The notes below the pieces were generated by a model. The model was not told the DNA's origin. It ran no database searches and saw only the letters and a program-made list of their open reading frames with translations. DNA of 64,000 nt from Eledone cirrhosa (Eukaryota): positions 24,180,001 through 24,244,000 of the forward strand of contig OZ024745.1 in assembly GCA_964016885.1 (NCBI GenBank), written 5' to 3'. Each line of letters starts with the position of its first letter. Position 1 is the first letter of the stretch. Positions 1-56,945 of this stretch are shown one piece after another. The position numbers and the translations under genes are program-made.

Positions 1-73
1 AGAACAAGTAAAATTCAATCAATTATTTAAAATACATTAAAAAATACAATATAAATATTTACCTCTCCTAGTG

Positions 74-155
74 GCCCTTACTGATCAGTTTCGCTTTGTA
101 AAACCTCATAAATCCGATGGATTTCTGATGGAAAACCAAAGCTCATCAGAGAAGC
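74..155 (-). ncRNA. Type I hammerhead ribozyme in a non-autonomous PLE-derived unit (unit ~1-545)
   Basis: Minus strand reads CTGATGA-gctttg...caaagc-GAAA-ctgatcag-TA: stem II, palindromic stem III, GUA site; stem I weak. Positions 1-60 repeat at 489-545 (period ~488). Confidence 0.75.
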
Positions 156-1084
156 ATTTTCCTTTCCTAGGGCTAAACGTCCCAGGAACGACAAAATATA
201 TGACCTCCTGCCAGCAAATAAAGGTTTGAAAGGTCGTAAAAGTGACCCGTATGTAAACTGCACCGAAGTAAAAGCGGGAAAATCAAAGACTTGCTGTCTA
301 CAATTACTACTAAAAAAAAATAGCAGCTAAATAGAACAACAGATTTGTTCTCAACATAACGGAAATAATGAATGAAGTTAATATGTCCAAGGATACTAGG
401 TACCCCTAGAAATACATAGGTTGTCTATGATTCAAGGTTGTTCAATGGTATTAATTTGATACACCAGAACTTTAATATTAAGTTAAGCAGAACAAGTAAA
501 ATACAATCAATTTTTAAAAATACATTAAAAATATAATATAAATATATATATATATATATATATATATATACGCACACATACACACATTCACAATTATGTA
601 TATATATACACACACATACATAAACATATACACACATACATACACGTACACATACAGGGAAATATACACACACATAACATATACACACATATACATGAGA
701 AAAAATACATACAACCACATGCACACATATATATATAAATAATTACTTATATATAAAAATATACATACATACACACATACGCATATGTACACATACATAT
801 GCAGGCACATACATACACATAAATAAAATATATATATAAAAGAAGTCGAAATGTTTATAACTGATTTAGAGCACTTAACAAGTTCGTGGAGTAAAATGAT
901 ATTAAATATTTAATATCTTTCTATATAATTGTATATATATATAAATATAATACACATACACACACACACACACACACACACACGTATATATATATATATA
1001 TATATATATATATATATATATATATATATATATATATATATATATATATATATATAGAGAGAGAGAGAGAGAGAGAGAGAGAGA

Positions 1085-1680
1085 GAGTATTAGTACATCT
1101 ACCAACATATGTGTACAGATGTACACTCATGCTAGCAAATATATAAGTTATGTCTTAGTACCTATGTGGTTCTATGCATATAACCACATAGGTACTAAGA
1201 CATAACTTATATGCTAGCATGAGTGTACATCTGTACACATATGTTGGTAGATGTACTAATTCTCTATATTTATCTCCAAATTAATTTTTGAGCAAAACTT
1301 GCCAAAATTTACTGATGTTTCATGGTAGTAGTAGGCTCTTGTCATAATACCACCCCGTTCCTAACTGATTAACCTCGGTGTCACGTGATTGATTCTTTAG
1401 AATCTGCCACTGACCAGAGGCAGTGAAATTTTTTCAGTGCTCTGGAATTTAGTCCTCGCTAGCTTCATTCCATCTACTGAATTATTATTTTTATATGGGT
1501 TCCTAGTGTCCGCGCATTGCCTGGGAACGTACCTGAGAATAGACTCCCTGATGACGTAATGAATTCTCTATAGTTATATATATTATGTAACTATACAGAA
1601 ACTAATTAGTTGGAGTGAAAATTTTAGTAAGTAAGTTGATTTTTAATTTTAAAAATTTTCTTATTTTACGTCTTTCATAT
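1085..1680 (+). mobile_element. Non-autonomous PLE-derived element with 5' inverted repeat and HHR
   Basis: Inverted repeat 1088-1170/1181-1262, HHR at 1543-1616, flanked by (TA)n(GA)n and (TA)n. Confidence 0.65.
1543..1616 (+). ncRNA. Type I hammerhead ribozyme
   Basis: actcc-CTGATGA-(tatagttata/tgtaactata hairpin)-GAAA-ctaattag-TT-ggagt; perfect stem I, palindromic stem III. Confidence 0.75.
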
Positions 1681-2109
1681 ATATATATATATATATATAT
1701 ATATATATATATACACACACATACATCAAGTTACATCACCACATAATATAAAAATACACACACACACATATATAATCATATATATATATATATATATATA
1801 TATATATATATATATATATATATATATATATATATATATATATATATATATATATATATATATATATATATACGTACATATAAATAAATATACATACTCA
1901 CACAAACATATAAACAAAGACGTGCATATTCACGCAAAATAAATACACACGCACATAAGCACACACACATATATATATATATACATATATATACACACAC
2001 ATATATATATATATATATATATATATATATATATATATATATATATATATATATATATATATACACACATATATATATATATAAATATATATATATATAT
2101 ATATATATA

Positions 2110-2704
2110 TATTTCGTTTCTGAATTTGTTTAGCAAGATTCTTTATCTGAAATCGTGTGTTGAAACCGATATTGTTATACTTTGGGAGGGTCATGTTGCC
2201 AATAAGAAACACACGCACCAGTTGCTTTCACTTCAATTTAATTTATTAAATATTTATAAATTTACAAATTTATAAATTTCTGGTTGGTTGGTTGGTTCCA
2301 CAACCAGATAGTTGTTTATATATATATAGTCATAGTTCTTTCGTCACACACTCTGTGACCTCTTCAGTGACTGGGGATTTCTTTCTTCGTTTCTGTGCCT
2401 TTCCTTTCTTCTATCCTACGCCATTTTGTAGGATAGAAGAAAGGAAAAATGGCGTAGGATAGAAGAAAGGAAAGGCACAGAAACGAAGAAAGAAATCCCC
2501 AGTCACTGAAGAGGTCACAGAGTGTGTGACGAAAGAACTATGACTATATATATATAAACAACTATCTGGTTGTGGAACCAACCAACCAACCAGAAATTTA
2601 TAAATTTGTAAATTTATAAATATTTAATAAATTAAATTGAAGTGAAAGCAACTGGTGCGTGTGTTTCTTATTGGCAACATGACCCTCCCAAAGTATAACA
2701 ATAT
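2110..2704. mobile_element. Fold-back PLE pLTR-like element with minimal HHR (2501-2545, +)
   Basis: ~260 bp inverted arms 2168-2428/2446-2704; agtca-CTGAAGA-g-gtcaca..tgtgac-GAAA-gaac-TA-tgact. Related copies at 41515-41962 and 56290-56945. Confidence 0.7.
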
Positions 2705-3014
2705 ATATATATATATATATATATATATATATATATATATATATATATATATATATATATATATATATATATATATATATATACACACATACATACATAT
2801 ATACACATACATTCATACACATATATACATATACATACATACACACAGGAACAAATATCTATATATAAAAGTGGTAAATATATGAGGAGAGGAGGGAGAA
2901 AAAGAATATGTGGGTACAGAATGTGAGTTCAGAGAGTAATAATAATCGTAGTGGATGTAAGTTGTAATGAGTAAAGAAGAAGTTCAAGGTGGTTGAGTCA
3001 TCATAGGAATGACA

Positions 3015-54529: not shown

Positions 54530-54974
54530 GATCTTCCTTTACACTTTTTTTATCGATCCAGTATCTCTTTCTTCTTTTTCCCTTTTTCCCTTTTCTCCCT
54601 TTTTCCTGTATTAATTTTCCGTTCTTTATTTTTAATTCGTACGACTTTTCATGTAGCTTGTATAAGACATTTTGTTTAATGGCGGTACCCTTAGAGTTAG
54701 CACCAGTATTTTTTTGCGGAACCCTGAATTACATTCTCGTACTAGTCTACTTTCTTGCACTGGGTGGTTGCTGGCCCGGTGTTTGGGGTAGAAACCGTTA
54801 TTTATTTATTTTTTCGTGGTGGTCTCTGTAGTATTCCGACCCCCCCCTCTGTTGACCCGTCACCGTACGATACACGCACTTATACCCCGCATAAGGGTCC
54901 CTTTATCTCCGTCACACCTAGGGTTTTTTTTCTATCATTATCATTCGTTTTCTTATTCTTTTTATTCTACATTA

Positions 54975-55320
54975 TGGAGGCACATGGCTTAGTGGTTAGA
55001 GCATTGGCCTTGCAATCGAAAGGTTGTGAGTTCAATTCTCAGACCGGGTGATGTGTTGTTTCCTTGAGCAAGACACTTTATTTCACATTGCTCCAGTTTA
55101 CTCAGCTGTAGAAATGAGATGATAGGGACTGGGGTCCCTATCATTCCACTGCAAAGTGGTCGTGGAGGTGCCACGGCAAAAAAGCACCCAGCACTCACTG
55201 TAAATGAGGTTGGTGTTAGGAAGGGCATCCAGCTGTAGAAATCAAGCCAGAATCAGTTCCCGTCCCACCCTTGCAAGCAGGGAAAAGCGGACGTAAAATG
55301 AAATGATGATGAATGATGAT
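54975..55320 (+). mobile_element. tRNA-derived SINE (family 2)
   Basis: A-box TGGCTTAGTGG, B-box GAGTTCAATTC, CCTTGAGCAAGACACTT core, (ATG)n tail; degenerate relative ~30540-30630 (minus). Confidence 0.75.
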
Positions 55321-55384
55321 TATATATATATATATATATTTTTTTTTTAAATCTATCTATCCATCCTTTTACTCACTTATTTGT

Positions 55385-55835
55385 TTATTTACTCACTTAT
55401 GTATTTCTTGTGGAATATTATTTACGTATTTCTTATTTACTTATGTGGAATATTACTTATGTATTTCTTATTTACTTATGTGGAATATTATTCATGTATT
55501 TCTTATTTACTTATGTGGAATATTCTTTATGTATTTCTTATTTACTTATGTGGAATATTATTTTTGTATTTCTTCAAGGCGATGGATTAGCAGTATCGGT
55601 AGAGGGTCGGACGCCATGCTTTCCAGCATAGTTACGACCCTTTACGATCTGAGTTCAAATCCCGCCGAGGTTGACTTTGACTTTCATCCTTACGGGGTCG
55701 ATAAAATAACGTACCAGTAATGCACTGGGTAATTGCTGGCCTTGTGCCTAAAGTAGAAACAATTATTTTTGTATTTCTTATTTACTTATGTGGAATATTA
55801 TTTATGTATTTCTTATTTACTTATTTATGTATTTC
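55385..55835. repeat. 35-bp minisatellite interrupted by a family-1 SINE (55578-55767, +)
   Basis: Unit gtatttcttatttacttatgtggaatattattta(t) starting at 55426, 55461, 55496, 55531, 55566 and resuming at 55771. Confidence 0.85.
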
Positions 55836-56289
55836 TTCAGCCTAGCAATAGCGAGAGAATTAAGTCTTAGTAACCAGATTCTGCTTATATTTCTTTTCTC
55901 TCTCAGTACCTTTTACAGTTTTACATTTTCATCGTTCTACTTACCGTATTGACCCCCCCCCCCCTCCCCTGCTTCCTCTTTGACCTCACACGCAGCTGTA
56001 GCTGGCACCACCAACGCATGAATGGGTCTACTCCTCCCCCTCTCCCCTTTTCTCCTACTGGCAGGTTTGGCTACCTCCCCCACCAACTTGCCATCGCAGA
56101 ATTACTACTACCTTGTGGGATGACCAATCCTGGTGATTATCTCTTTGACCATATATGGAATTGCCCCTTGACAAGTTCGGCTATTTAAATACCTGAACTG
56201 ATTTTTCATTCAGTACAGAATTAGCCGTCGAAACGGCTTGAGCTCAGCCGTCGGGGTCTTACTTACTCCTATATATATATAGTTTAGCG

Positions 56290-56945
56290 AGGTTTTTTAT
56301 ATGAAATCGTGTGTCGAAACAGATATTGTTATACTTGGGGAGGGTCATATTTGCGAATATTGCCAGAATTGATAACAGAACACACTCACTATTTGGTTGG
56401 TTTTCGCTTCTCGCTGTCTTTTATATCTGCGATCTAACTTACTCGGTCCTCAATGTTGCCATTGACTGACCGATGGTCAAAAATAATTGTTTCTACTTTT
56501 GGCACAAGGCCAGCAATTATTCCAGTGCATTACTGGTACTTTATTTTATCGACCCCGTAAGGATGAAAGGCAAAGTTAACCTCGGCGGGATTTGAACTCA
56601 GATCATAAAGGGAGGTAACTCTATGCTTCAAAGCATGGCGTCCAACCCTTACCGATACTGCCAATCCACCGCCCTTGGATGGTCAAAAATAATACAGATA
56701 CAATATAGACACAAACACATATATGTAGTTTACATAATTTACATAAATCTTTCGTTGCACATCTGCAACATCGTCAGTGGTGTTATATTCTTTGTTCCTC
56801 CTGTTGTGTTGTATGTCTACGAGTAAGTTAGATCGCAGATATAAAAGACAGCGAGAAGCGAAAACCAACCAAACAGTGAGTGTGTTCTGTTATTAATTCT
56901 GGCAATATTACGCAAATATGACCCTACCCAAGTATAACAATATAT
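56290..56945. mobile_element. Fold-back pLTR-like element with nested SINE (56483-56674, minus)
   Basis: Arms ~56323-56445/56820-56943; SINE TSD gatggtcaaaaataat; minimal HHR-like core on minus strand 56741-56790. Confidence 0.7.

What the first reader, a model, noticed from the sequence alone, without database searches (positions are those of the whole stretch)
1..56945. Diverse hammerhead-bearing, ~480-600 nt non-autonomous retrozyme-like elements living in (TA)n
Seen: more than 15 type I HHR motifs in apparently unrelated non-coding families. Five show a partial tandem repeat with periods ~488 (1-545), ~479 (5511-6227), ~545 (12086-13112), 538 (35655-36612) and 591 nt (49585-50470), usually with an inverted partial copy and (TA)n flanks. 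Known: PLE pLTRs carry HHRs, and metazoan non-LTR retrozymes give small circular RNAs. Inference: these are monomers-plus copied from HHR-processed, possibly circular RNAs by the Naiad-like RT/endonuclease present in the same window.
Basis: partly seen in the sequence, partly recalled or inferred. Interest (0 to 1): 0.85.

Follow-up and report, generated by a model that had tools for sequence, protein, structure and literature searches.

The report
Hammerhead retrozymes riding Hydra-type Penelope elements
Five short non-coding repeats that each carry a hammerhead (self-cutting RNA) motif have been copied as tandem, often two-armed arrays into TA microsatellites across this animal genome; they are new members of the known animal 'retrozymes', likely moved by Penelope-type enzymes, and one array carries a pattern of changes that a circular RNA template would explain.

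Summary
Observation largely confirmed. A hammerhead descriptor gives 20 hits (shuffle mean 1.1); I accept 17. All five periods are real, and each unit is a genome-wide, ORF-less family with arrays up to 13 units. These are non-LTR retrozymes, a known class already linked to Penelope-like elements. Corrections: the window's RTs are Hydra-clade, not Naiad. Only 7 of the 17 motifs lie in tandem units or a relative; 5 are ends of ORF-bearing Hydra elements and 5 lie in fixed-5'-end stubs. Copies end at two fixed sites, and two-armed copies use one of each (64 of 66 loci in two families). Three families share a Hydra start-site hairpin; two lack it. For a circle: in locus L076, seven private changes (five A-to-G, editing-like) recur in every covering unit of both arms, and no donor locus was found. 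Against: some arrays show DNA-level duplication and patchwork variants, and the A-to-G bias is seen in one family only. Cleavage and RNA circles are untested. The scan has found this class, the two-armed ends and the hairpin before on other DNA.

The parts
1..548 (-). F488 retrozyme copy, about 1.15 units, one arm; 3' end (site A, +92) lies 14 bases before the window start
71..157 (-). F488 hammerhead motif, predicted cut at 79
5511..6227 (+). F480 copy: inverted arm 5515-5562 ending at site A (+79), direct arm 5561-6227 ending at site B (+187)
5953..6042 (+). F480 hammerhead motif, predicted cut after 6034
12087..13112 (+). F545 copy: inverted arm 12087-12336 ending at site A (+191), direct arm 12338-13112 ending at site B (+290)
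12752..12827 (+). F545 hammerhead motif, predicted cut after 12819
35015..36612 (+). F538 copy (about 434 nt plus an internal (TA)n). The inverted arm appears to run 35015-35833, interrupted at its internal TA run by a Hydra-2-family stub; direct arm 35837-36611; two hammerhead motifs, predicted cuts after 35916 and 36454
49102..49553 (-). Fragment of an F538-related subfamily (about 78% identical) with a hammerhead motif whose helix I shows a G-U to U-G swap
49582..50471 (-). F591 copy (very young family): direct arm 49587-50346 ending at site B (+245), inverted arm 50344-50471 ending at site A (+80)
49819..49912 (-). F591 hammerhead motif with U3-A8 core, predicted cut at 49827
44928..49054 (+). 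Hydra-1 autonomous-type PLE: inverted arm 44928-45055, pLTRs 45058-45283 and 48828-49054, RT and C-terminal GIY-YIG frame 45324-47552 with one stop; three hammerhead motifs
51237..51470 (-). Hydra-1-family solo end (ordinary 5'-truncated stub) with hammerhead motif
51665..56269 (+). Hydra-2 autonomous-type PLE: inverted arm from 51665, pLTRs 51947-52213 and 56059-56269, frame 52157-54529 with one stop; U3-A8 hammerhead motif
35160..35572 (-). Hydra-2-family 3' stub with hammerhead motif; shorter stubs at 20314-20492, 22380-22438, 38655-38830 and 44545-44699
2112..2701 (.). Fold-back copy of a fixed-5'-end, sub-unit family (starts at about 2444) with minimal hammerhead motifs; relative at 41519-41961
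13704..14139 (.). Fold-back copy of a second fixed-5'-end family with a Hydra-type hairpin behind site A; relative at 37223-37390
56282..56940 (-). Two-armed 3' stub of an ORF-bearing non-Hydra PLE (Nematis/Neptune-type motifs), interrupted by a dispersed 200-bp repeat at 56479-56678

Best explanation
The five units are protein-free, hammerhead-bearing retroelements (animal non-LTR retrozymes) spread genome-wide in (TA)n, likely copied by Penelope-like enzymes in trans, and most likely from unit-length circular RNA. Shown: ORF-less tandem units; two fixed 3' ends per family 80-290 nt behind the predicted cut; variable 5' truncation; two-armed copies with one end of each kind; the same architecture in autonomous Hydra elements; a shared start-site hairpin in F480, F488, F545 and both Hydra families. 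Inferred: tandem transcripts are cut by the hammerheads (mostly palindromic helix III, so probably as dimers) and ligated. A PLE RT/GIY-YIG protein then cuts both strands of a TA tract and primes one end at site A and the other at site B, helped by a short TA match. Both cDNAs run through the sealed cut site for one or more rounds and are joined head to head. Hydra is the likely helper for three families; the helper of F591 and F538 is unidentified. DNA-level duplication later lengthens some arrays.
For: First-look candidates 1894, 1113, 292, 1133 and 1952, with 39-40 scored each and tandem arrays on many contigs; up to 13.2 units. One A plus one B end: F591 17 of 18 and 28 of 29 more, F480 19 of 19, F488 3 of 5; Hydra-2 7 of 7 fully visible two-armed loci among 30. 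Hairpin at 4 of 4 Hydra sites and 6 of 10 retrozyme sites against 3.3% background. Units within a locus are closer than between loci in all five families, e.g. F591 0.36% vs 1.32%. Heritable variants avoid the hammerhead: 0 in the core (4.5 expected), 4 in core plus helices I/III (11.5 expected, P 0.011), while non-heritable ones do not (32 vs 31). L076: seven private changes plus one shared, six of the eight A-to-G, in every covering unit of both arms, with no donor among 40 scored of 1280 candidates. L075 shows the same for two A-to-G changes. F591 array-fixed sites: 21 A-to-G vs 10 T-to-C of 47, none of the 21 after a G.
Against: F591 and F538 lack the Hydra hairpin (0 of 4 sites). No unit shares sequence with the two Hydra elements of the window. 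Alternating variants in L075, higher-order repeats in L079 and duplicated whole insertions (L077, C17 7.69-7.71 Mb) show DNA-level amplification. L333, L302 and L044 carry variants in some units of both arms, which a single circle does not predict. The A-to-G bias is absent in F480, F488 and F545; polarity-free, F591 differs from its single-copy events only at P 0.054, and the second locus set had too few private fixed changes to test it (1 vs 1). F545 homogeneity is weak (4.14% vs 4.60%). Two other window families appear to use linear templates with fixed 5' ends and an uncut hammerhead. In vitro, a Poseidon PLE used unprocessed RNA and needed no hammerhead cleavage (PMC11167929), and 8 of 9 Xenopus retrozyme dimers did not cleave (bioRxiv 2026.07.22.740005).
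Confidence: 0.6

Rival explanations
1. Same non-autonomous families and PLE helpers, but the template is an uncleaved linear multimer read from tandem donor arrays. Arrays grow and homogenise by unequal crossover and conversion, and the hammerhead acts at another step or is parasitic.
For: Unit-specific variants shared between arms in L333, L302 and L044; DNA-level duplications; unprocessed RNA was the substrate in vitro; fixed-5'-end families cross their cut site uncut.
Against: L076 needs the same A-to-G changes in the B-arm terminal piece and in the units upstream of it, with no donor found; hammerhead positions are depleted of heritable variants.
Confidence: 0.3
2. The template is the linear, doubly cut monomer, and the RT jumps from its 5' end to its own 3' end, which mimics a circle.
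For: It predicts the same homogeneity as a circle; PLE inversion junctions show that template switches occur.
Against: The cut site is crossed cleanly in nearly all units listed; one F488 copy begins at about position +7 and one F545 copy at +11, with no pile-up of truncations at +1.
Confidence: 0.07
3. All units are solo-pLTR truncations of autonomous PLEs, or satellites that never pass through RNA.
For: True for other window hammerheads: Hydra-1 and Hydra-2 stubs and the 56282-56940 family.
Against: The five units continue into themselves in tandem, are dispersed over many contigs with fixed 3' ends, and show no contiguous ORF in 274 locus records.
Confidence: 0.03

Closest known systems
Animal non-LTR retrozymes (Cervera and de la Pena 2020, PMC7229834; passages and sections 14 and 17 read)
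   Same: ORF-less tandem repeats, one type I hammerhead per unit, GC under 45%, dimers to multimers, co-existing PLEs proposed as helpers, circRNA proposed as RT template.
   Different: Units of 450-590 nt against about 170-400 nt for invertebrates there; long helix II in four families; a U3-A8 core in F591; (TA)n targeting, two fixed ends and inverted arms were not in the passages read; circles were shown there and are untested here.
Retrozymes as non-autonomous PLE derivatives (Li, Clavereau and Pollet 2026, bioRxiv 10.64898/2026.07.22.740005; parts 1-3 of 5 read, supplements not seen)
   Same: Same conclusion on PLE dependence; consensus lengths of 51-972 bp include these sizes.
   Different: Mostly vertebrates and no mollusc; based on co-occurrence and pLTR similarity. 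Here no parent pLTR was found, and the link rests on insertion architecture and a shared hairpin.
Hydra clade of C-terminal EN+ PLEs, including Hydra-1_Obim (Craig et al. 2021, PMC8557442; section 11, passages and supplement passages read)
   Same: RWK-like motif, DKT, CxCx5C linker, C-terminal GIY-YIG, hammerheads, (TA)n targets, tandem and inverted insertions, a tail at one end only.
   Different: The tail here is about 60-165 nt against 30-40 bp; that paper reports non-autonomous partners for Chlamys (MRC1), not for Hydra, in the passages read.
Poseidon PAc in vitro (Frangieh et al. 2024, PMC11167929; parts 1-2 of 4 read)
   Same: Internal initiation at two sites that define the tail, AT-rich target, both strands cut and extended, predicted dimer.
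   Different: There the start site did not differ by strand and was not homologous to the target. Here two-armed copies almost always pair A with B, and the ends sit at short TA tracts of the unit.
Minimal PLE hammerheads (Cervera and de la Pena 2014, PMC4209133; parts 1-2 of 4 read)
   Same: Palindromic helix III, U3-A8 variant, opposite-strand pairs 100-700 bp apart, circle hypothesis for head-to-tail copies.
   Different: Helix III here is mostly longer (2-5 bp), and the units are ORF-less families.

Membership tests
Animal non-LTR retrozymes | Type I hammerhead in each unit | tested here: met
Animal non-LTR retrozymes | Short head-to-tail tandem repeats with at least two hammerheads | tested here: met
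   Arrays of 2-13 units genome-wide; within the window only F538 has two complete motifs in tandem
Animal non-LTR retrozymes | No protein coding, no LTR structure, low GC | tested here: met
   No tblastn hit to Hydra proteins at E<0.1; GC 0.34-0.42; PBS and PPT were not searched
Animal non-LTR retrozymes | Self-cleavage of transcripts | not testable with these tools
   Only indirect: depletion of heritable variants in the motif
Animal non-LTR retrozymes | Accumulation as circular RNA | tested here: inconclusive
   Ring-like contigs of 620 and 621 letters in runs X5 and X1, whose kind is not on record; a tandem DNA array gives the same
Naiad clade (helper) | N-terminal GIY-YIG endonuclease and no canonical hammerhead | tested here: not met
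   GIY-YIG is C-terminal and the pLTRs carry hammerheads
Hydra clade (helper) | C-terminal GIY-YIG, RWK-like motif, DKT, CxCx5C linker | tested here: met
   Alignment against the definition; by-eye match to Hydra-1_Obim
Hydra clade (helper) | Placement in the Hydra clade on an RT tree | not tested
   No tree was built; the reference sequences were seen only in a paper supplement
Hydra clade (helper) | (TA)n targeting with tandem and inverted insertions | tested here: met
Hydra-dependent non-autonomous element | Shares the Hydra start-site hairpin at both ends | tested here: inconclusive
   Met for F480, F488 and F545 (6 of 6 sites), not met for F591 and F538 (0 of 4)
Solo-pLTR truncation of an ORF-bearing PLE | Upstream sequence leads into a PLE ORF in longer copies | tested here: not met
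   Not met for the five units; met for the 56282-56940 family and the Hydra stubs

The most novel reading that the evidence does not exclude
The arrays are a genomic record of rolling-circle reverse transcription. A dimeric Penelope-type enzyme primes both ends of a cut TA tract at two hairpin-marked sites on one circular RNA, and ADAR edits present on that single molecule are written into every unit of both arms. Edited retrozyme circles would then be a route by which A-to-I editing becomes heritable DNA change, and array-wide private edits would be the missing evidence that circles are the transposition template.
Probability: 0.35. Interest if true: 0.72.

Novelty: new member of a known kind. 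Interest (0 to 1): 0.47.

Why it matters
The class and its dependence on PLEs are in print, so five more families are modest news. Whether retrozyme circles are really the template for insertion has been proposed since 2014 and, in the papers read, not shown. This genome holds very young families with intact helpers, which makes that question testable from sequence and at the bench. The strict A-plus-B pairing and the shared hairpin give concrete predictions for how PLE proteins start copying.

Tried and rejected
Rfam: no hammerhead family among the 150 rows shown. Pfam: no family for the four Hydra frame pieces or for two whole or partial PLE frames. Sequencing runs for F591: no RNA holder listed, which is no evidence either way. 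Ring-like contigs in X1 and X5 cannot tell RNA circles from tandem DNA; whether those runs also hold the far more abundant Hydra DNA remains open. Search with 13971-14135 found no candidates; the neighbouring stretch did. A divergent Hydra protein as query returned only the Hydra-2 family, so no further helper families were sampled. My first test of hammerhead conservation was biased by end trimming and was redone with a rotated unit. The second F591 locus set was chosen by likeness to two haplotypes and had only 3 private fixed changes, so it could not replicate the A-to-G bias. Rejected: Naiad helper; ends at the NUH site; 1540, 4871 and 46403 as real hammerheads; a link between F480 and the Hydra fragment in L011, which is separated by microsatellite. 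Monomer folds of 9 motifs gave z from -3.6 to 0, and several did not adopt the active fold. Three literature searches on ADAR editing fixed in retrozyme or retrotransposon copies (listings only) showed no matching title; the library lacks most subscription papers and Repbase was not available.
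Full report
Setting. The window is G000:C5:24180001-24244000 of a 3.0-Gb, TA-rich animal genome. I did not determine the species. Family names below (F480 and so on) are my labels; positions written +n count from the predicted hammerhead cut in the RNA sense.

Observation. A strict descriptor gave 10-13 hits against shuffle means of 0.04-0.68. A version allowing a bulge or mismatch at the base of helix II gave 20 hits against a mean of 1.11 and a maximum of 6 in 100 shuffles. 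I set aside 3 as likely chance. The 17 accepted motifs split into 7 in the five tandem units and an F538 relative, 4 in Hydra-1 pLTRs, 1 in a Hydra-2-family stub, 2 in the 2444 family and 3 in the 13971 family. Four copies have an inverted arm and all sit in (TA)n.

The five units are real families. Own-genome searches gave 1894, 1113, 292, 1133 and 1952 first-look candidates for F480, F538, F591, F545 and F488, with 39-40 scored each; rotated F591 queries gave 1280 and 1054. These are not copy numbers. In the loci read, the unit continues into itself for 1.0-13.2 units. The units have no tblastn match to Hydra proteins at E<0.1, no meaningful DNA match to the two Hydra elements and none to each other. 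Among 274 locus records (1.01 Mb, some overlapping) a few had a PLE frame fragment within 1.5 kb on the same strand. By coordinates these lie beyond the unit's 3' end or outside the array, and the one I read was cut off by microsatellite. Only the best-scoring copies were sampled, so a rare autonomous parent is not excluded.

The helper is Hydra-like, not Naiad. [quoted passage not shown] That is the Hydra definition (PMC8557442 section 11), and the match to Hydra-1_Obim is clear by eye (supplement passages). Naiads have an N-terminal endonuclease and lack canonical hammerheads. No tree was built. Both families have open frames of about 745 and 784 aa elsewhere, and Hydra-2 forms tandem arrays with a period of about 3.5 kb. 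A third, non-Hydra PLE is present. [quoted passage not shown] I call it Nematis/Neptune-type from motifs only.

Insertion anatomy. Each family has two fixed 3' ends: F591 +80/+245, F480 +79/+187, F488 +92/+200, F545 +191/+290 and F538 about +235/+294, most at a short TA-rich tract of the unit; 5' ends vary. Copies therefore start downstream of the cut and run through it. Two-armed loci pair one A with one B end: F591 17 of 18 and, in a second set, 28 of 29; F480 19 of 19; F488 3 of 5. F545 gave 4 exact pairs of 8 and F538 4 of 5 with a B end. Hydra-2 gave 7 of 7 fully visible two-armed loci among 30. This matches the 'tail at one end only' of PLEs and the two internal start sites of Poseidon PAc, with a longer tail. 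Following a lead from earlier scan notes, I tested a small hairpin (YTC, 6-27 bases, TT or TA, GAR) next to each end. It is at 4 of 4 Hydra sites and at 6 of 6 sites in F480, F488 and F545 (with a compensatory CTC/GAG to TTC/GAA change in two), but at 0 of 4 in F591 and F538; background is 3.3%. The pattern was widened after seeing the sequences, so the P of 3e-7 overstates the case. The same motif is visible at the end of a published Hydra consensus.

Is the hammerhead under selection? Variants that are shared by loci or fixed in all copies of a locus avoid it: 0 in the core (4.5 expected) and 4 in core plus helices I and III (11.5 expected, P 0.011). Other variants do not (32 vs 31 expected; Fisher P 0.02). 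Helix III is palindromic with different sequences in four of the five families, the arrangement linked to dimeric cleavage of tandem transcripts. Cleavage itself is untested, and several monomers do not fold into the active form.

Circle or linear multimer? Units within a locus are more alike than between loci: F591 0.36% (same arm) and 0.30% (opposite arms) vs 1.32%; F480 0.90/1.01 vs 1.88; F488 1.46/2.44 vs 3.89; F538 1.21/1.68 vs 2.04; F545 4.14/3.07 vs 4.60. The strongest case is L076 (C1:50595300-50601300). Eight changes, six of them A-to-G, are in every covering unit of both arms; seven were private in the first 38 loci, and one of those (176) was later seen fixed in the second set. With that haplotype as query, only L076 itself matched above 98% among 40 scored of 1280 candidates. 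The changes at 113-204 lie both in the B-arm terminal piece and in the upstream units of both arms. On a linear multimer these are different nucleotides, and on a circle they are the same ones. L075 shows the same for two A-to-G changes, with the next-best loci two changes away. Across 81 F591 loci, 21 of 47 array-fixed sites are A-to-G and 10 are T-to-C, although the unit has 132 A and 212 T, and none of the 21 follows a G. In the first set P was 0.0004 for the asymmetry and 0.005 for the neighbour. Poor editing after a 5' G is stated in the abstract start of PMC8809894 (listing). F591 folds well as a circle (z -6.5 against 12 crude shuffles).

Against this reading: the bias is absent in F480, F488 and F545. 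Polarity-free, F591 differs from its single-copy events only at P 0.054, and not at all in the first set. The second set could not replicate the private-change test (1 vs 1). A donor could be missing from this assembly. DNA-level amplification is evident in L075, L079 and L077. L333, L302 and L044 carry variants in some units of both arms, in three different registers, which fits conversion, a mixed multimer template or assembly error. The 2444 and 13971 families start at a fixed 5' point in 15 of 15 loci read each and often fold back there; this suggests linear templates that cross an uncut hammerhead. In vitro, PAc needed no cleavage.

RNA. Runs X5 and X1 hold F591 as single contigs of 620 and 621 letters that close on themselves, but their kind is not on record and tandem DNA would look the same.

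Comparison and verdict. The class (PMC7229834), the circle hypothesis (PMC4209133), the PLE link (bioRxiv 2026.07.22.740005; supplements not seen, and they may list related families) and the Hydra clade are in print. Earlier notes of this scan report the class, the two-armed ends and the hairpin on other DNA, including a 483-bp family in this genome; no look-alike of F591 was indexed. I did not find array-wide editing-like changes described (listings only). Verdict: new members of a known kind. Non-autonomous PLE-mobilised retrozymes about 0.95; circular template about 0.6; interest 0.47.

Noticed in passing
window 2112-2701 and 41519-41961; L125-L139: Young family with a fixed 5' start at a YY1-like AAAATGGCG (motif identity recalled) that usually folds back into a near-perfect palindrome. 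It shares this start and its 3' end with the pLTR of the Nematis/Neptune-type PLE, so it may be a SINE-like solo-pLTR lineage.
   Followed up: partly
window 13704-14139 and 37223-37390; L230-L244: Second fixed-5'-end fold-back family, with a Hydra-type hammerhead and hairpin; all 15 loci read turn back at about the same point.
   Followed up: partly
window 36074-36177; L079-L082, L089: F538 carries its own (TA)n target inside the unit; its length varies from unit to unit, and in the window a Hydra-2-family stub appears to have inserted into it.
   Followed up: partly
L333 (C14:22676000-22682700), L302, L044: Variants present in some units of both arms; in L333 two changes sit in the second full unit from each end.
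   Followed up: partly
C1:91474419-91487157 and C1:437200453-437213157: Tandem arrays of full-length Hydra-2 with mostly open 784-786-aa frames; units of the first array differ at 2-4 of 2112 sites against 10-13 to other loci.
   Followed up: partly
runs X1-X6: F591 words are held at 82-97% by runs labelled as three different organisms.
   Followed up: no
window 1089-1260, 3755-4024, 5216-5303, 6369-6659, 11812-12026, 16759-16845, 37979-38080: Further palindromic or partial-tandem stubs in (TA)n, probably ends of other PLE families; most recur in flanks of fetched loci.
   Followed up: no
window 7040-7100 (-): Isolated compact hammerhead-like motif of the minimal PLE type, not in a TA tract; not seen in other fetched loci.
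   Followed up: no
window 6828-7028, 16672-16758, 17888-18048, 23384-23576, 24459-24647, 30750-30940, 41236-41426, 55580-55770, 56479-56678, 63456-63647: Abundant 190-200 bp dispersed repeat (SINE-like); one copy interrupts the PLE stub at 56479-56678 with a short target duplication.
   Followed up: no
window 14208-16434 (-), 25436-27361 (+), 57210-57706 (+): Fragments of a LINE-type element with an RVT_1 hit.
   Followed up: no
window 60098-60858 (+) and 61901-62635 (-): Decayed RT with a zf-RVT hit, and a frame with C2H2 zinc fingers, probably the 3' end of another LINE.
   Followed up: no
window 10400-11600 (-): About 1.2 kb of AT-rich, possibly decayed coding sequence between TA tracts; the one long frame tested had no Pfam hit.
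   Followed up: no
window 40658-41111 and 58442-58893: 454-bp repeat at 96.9% identity, with a weaker relative at 38312-38476.
   Followed up: no
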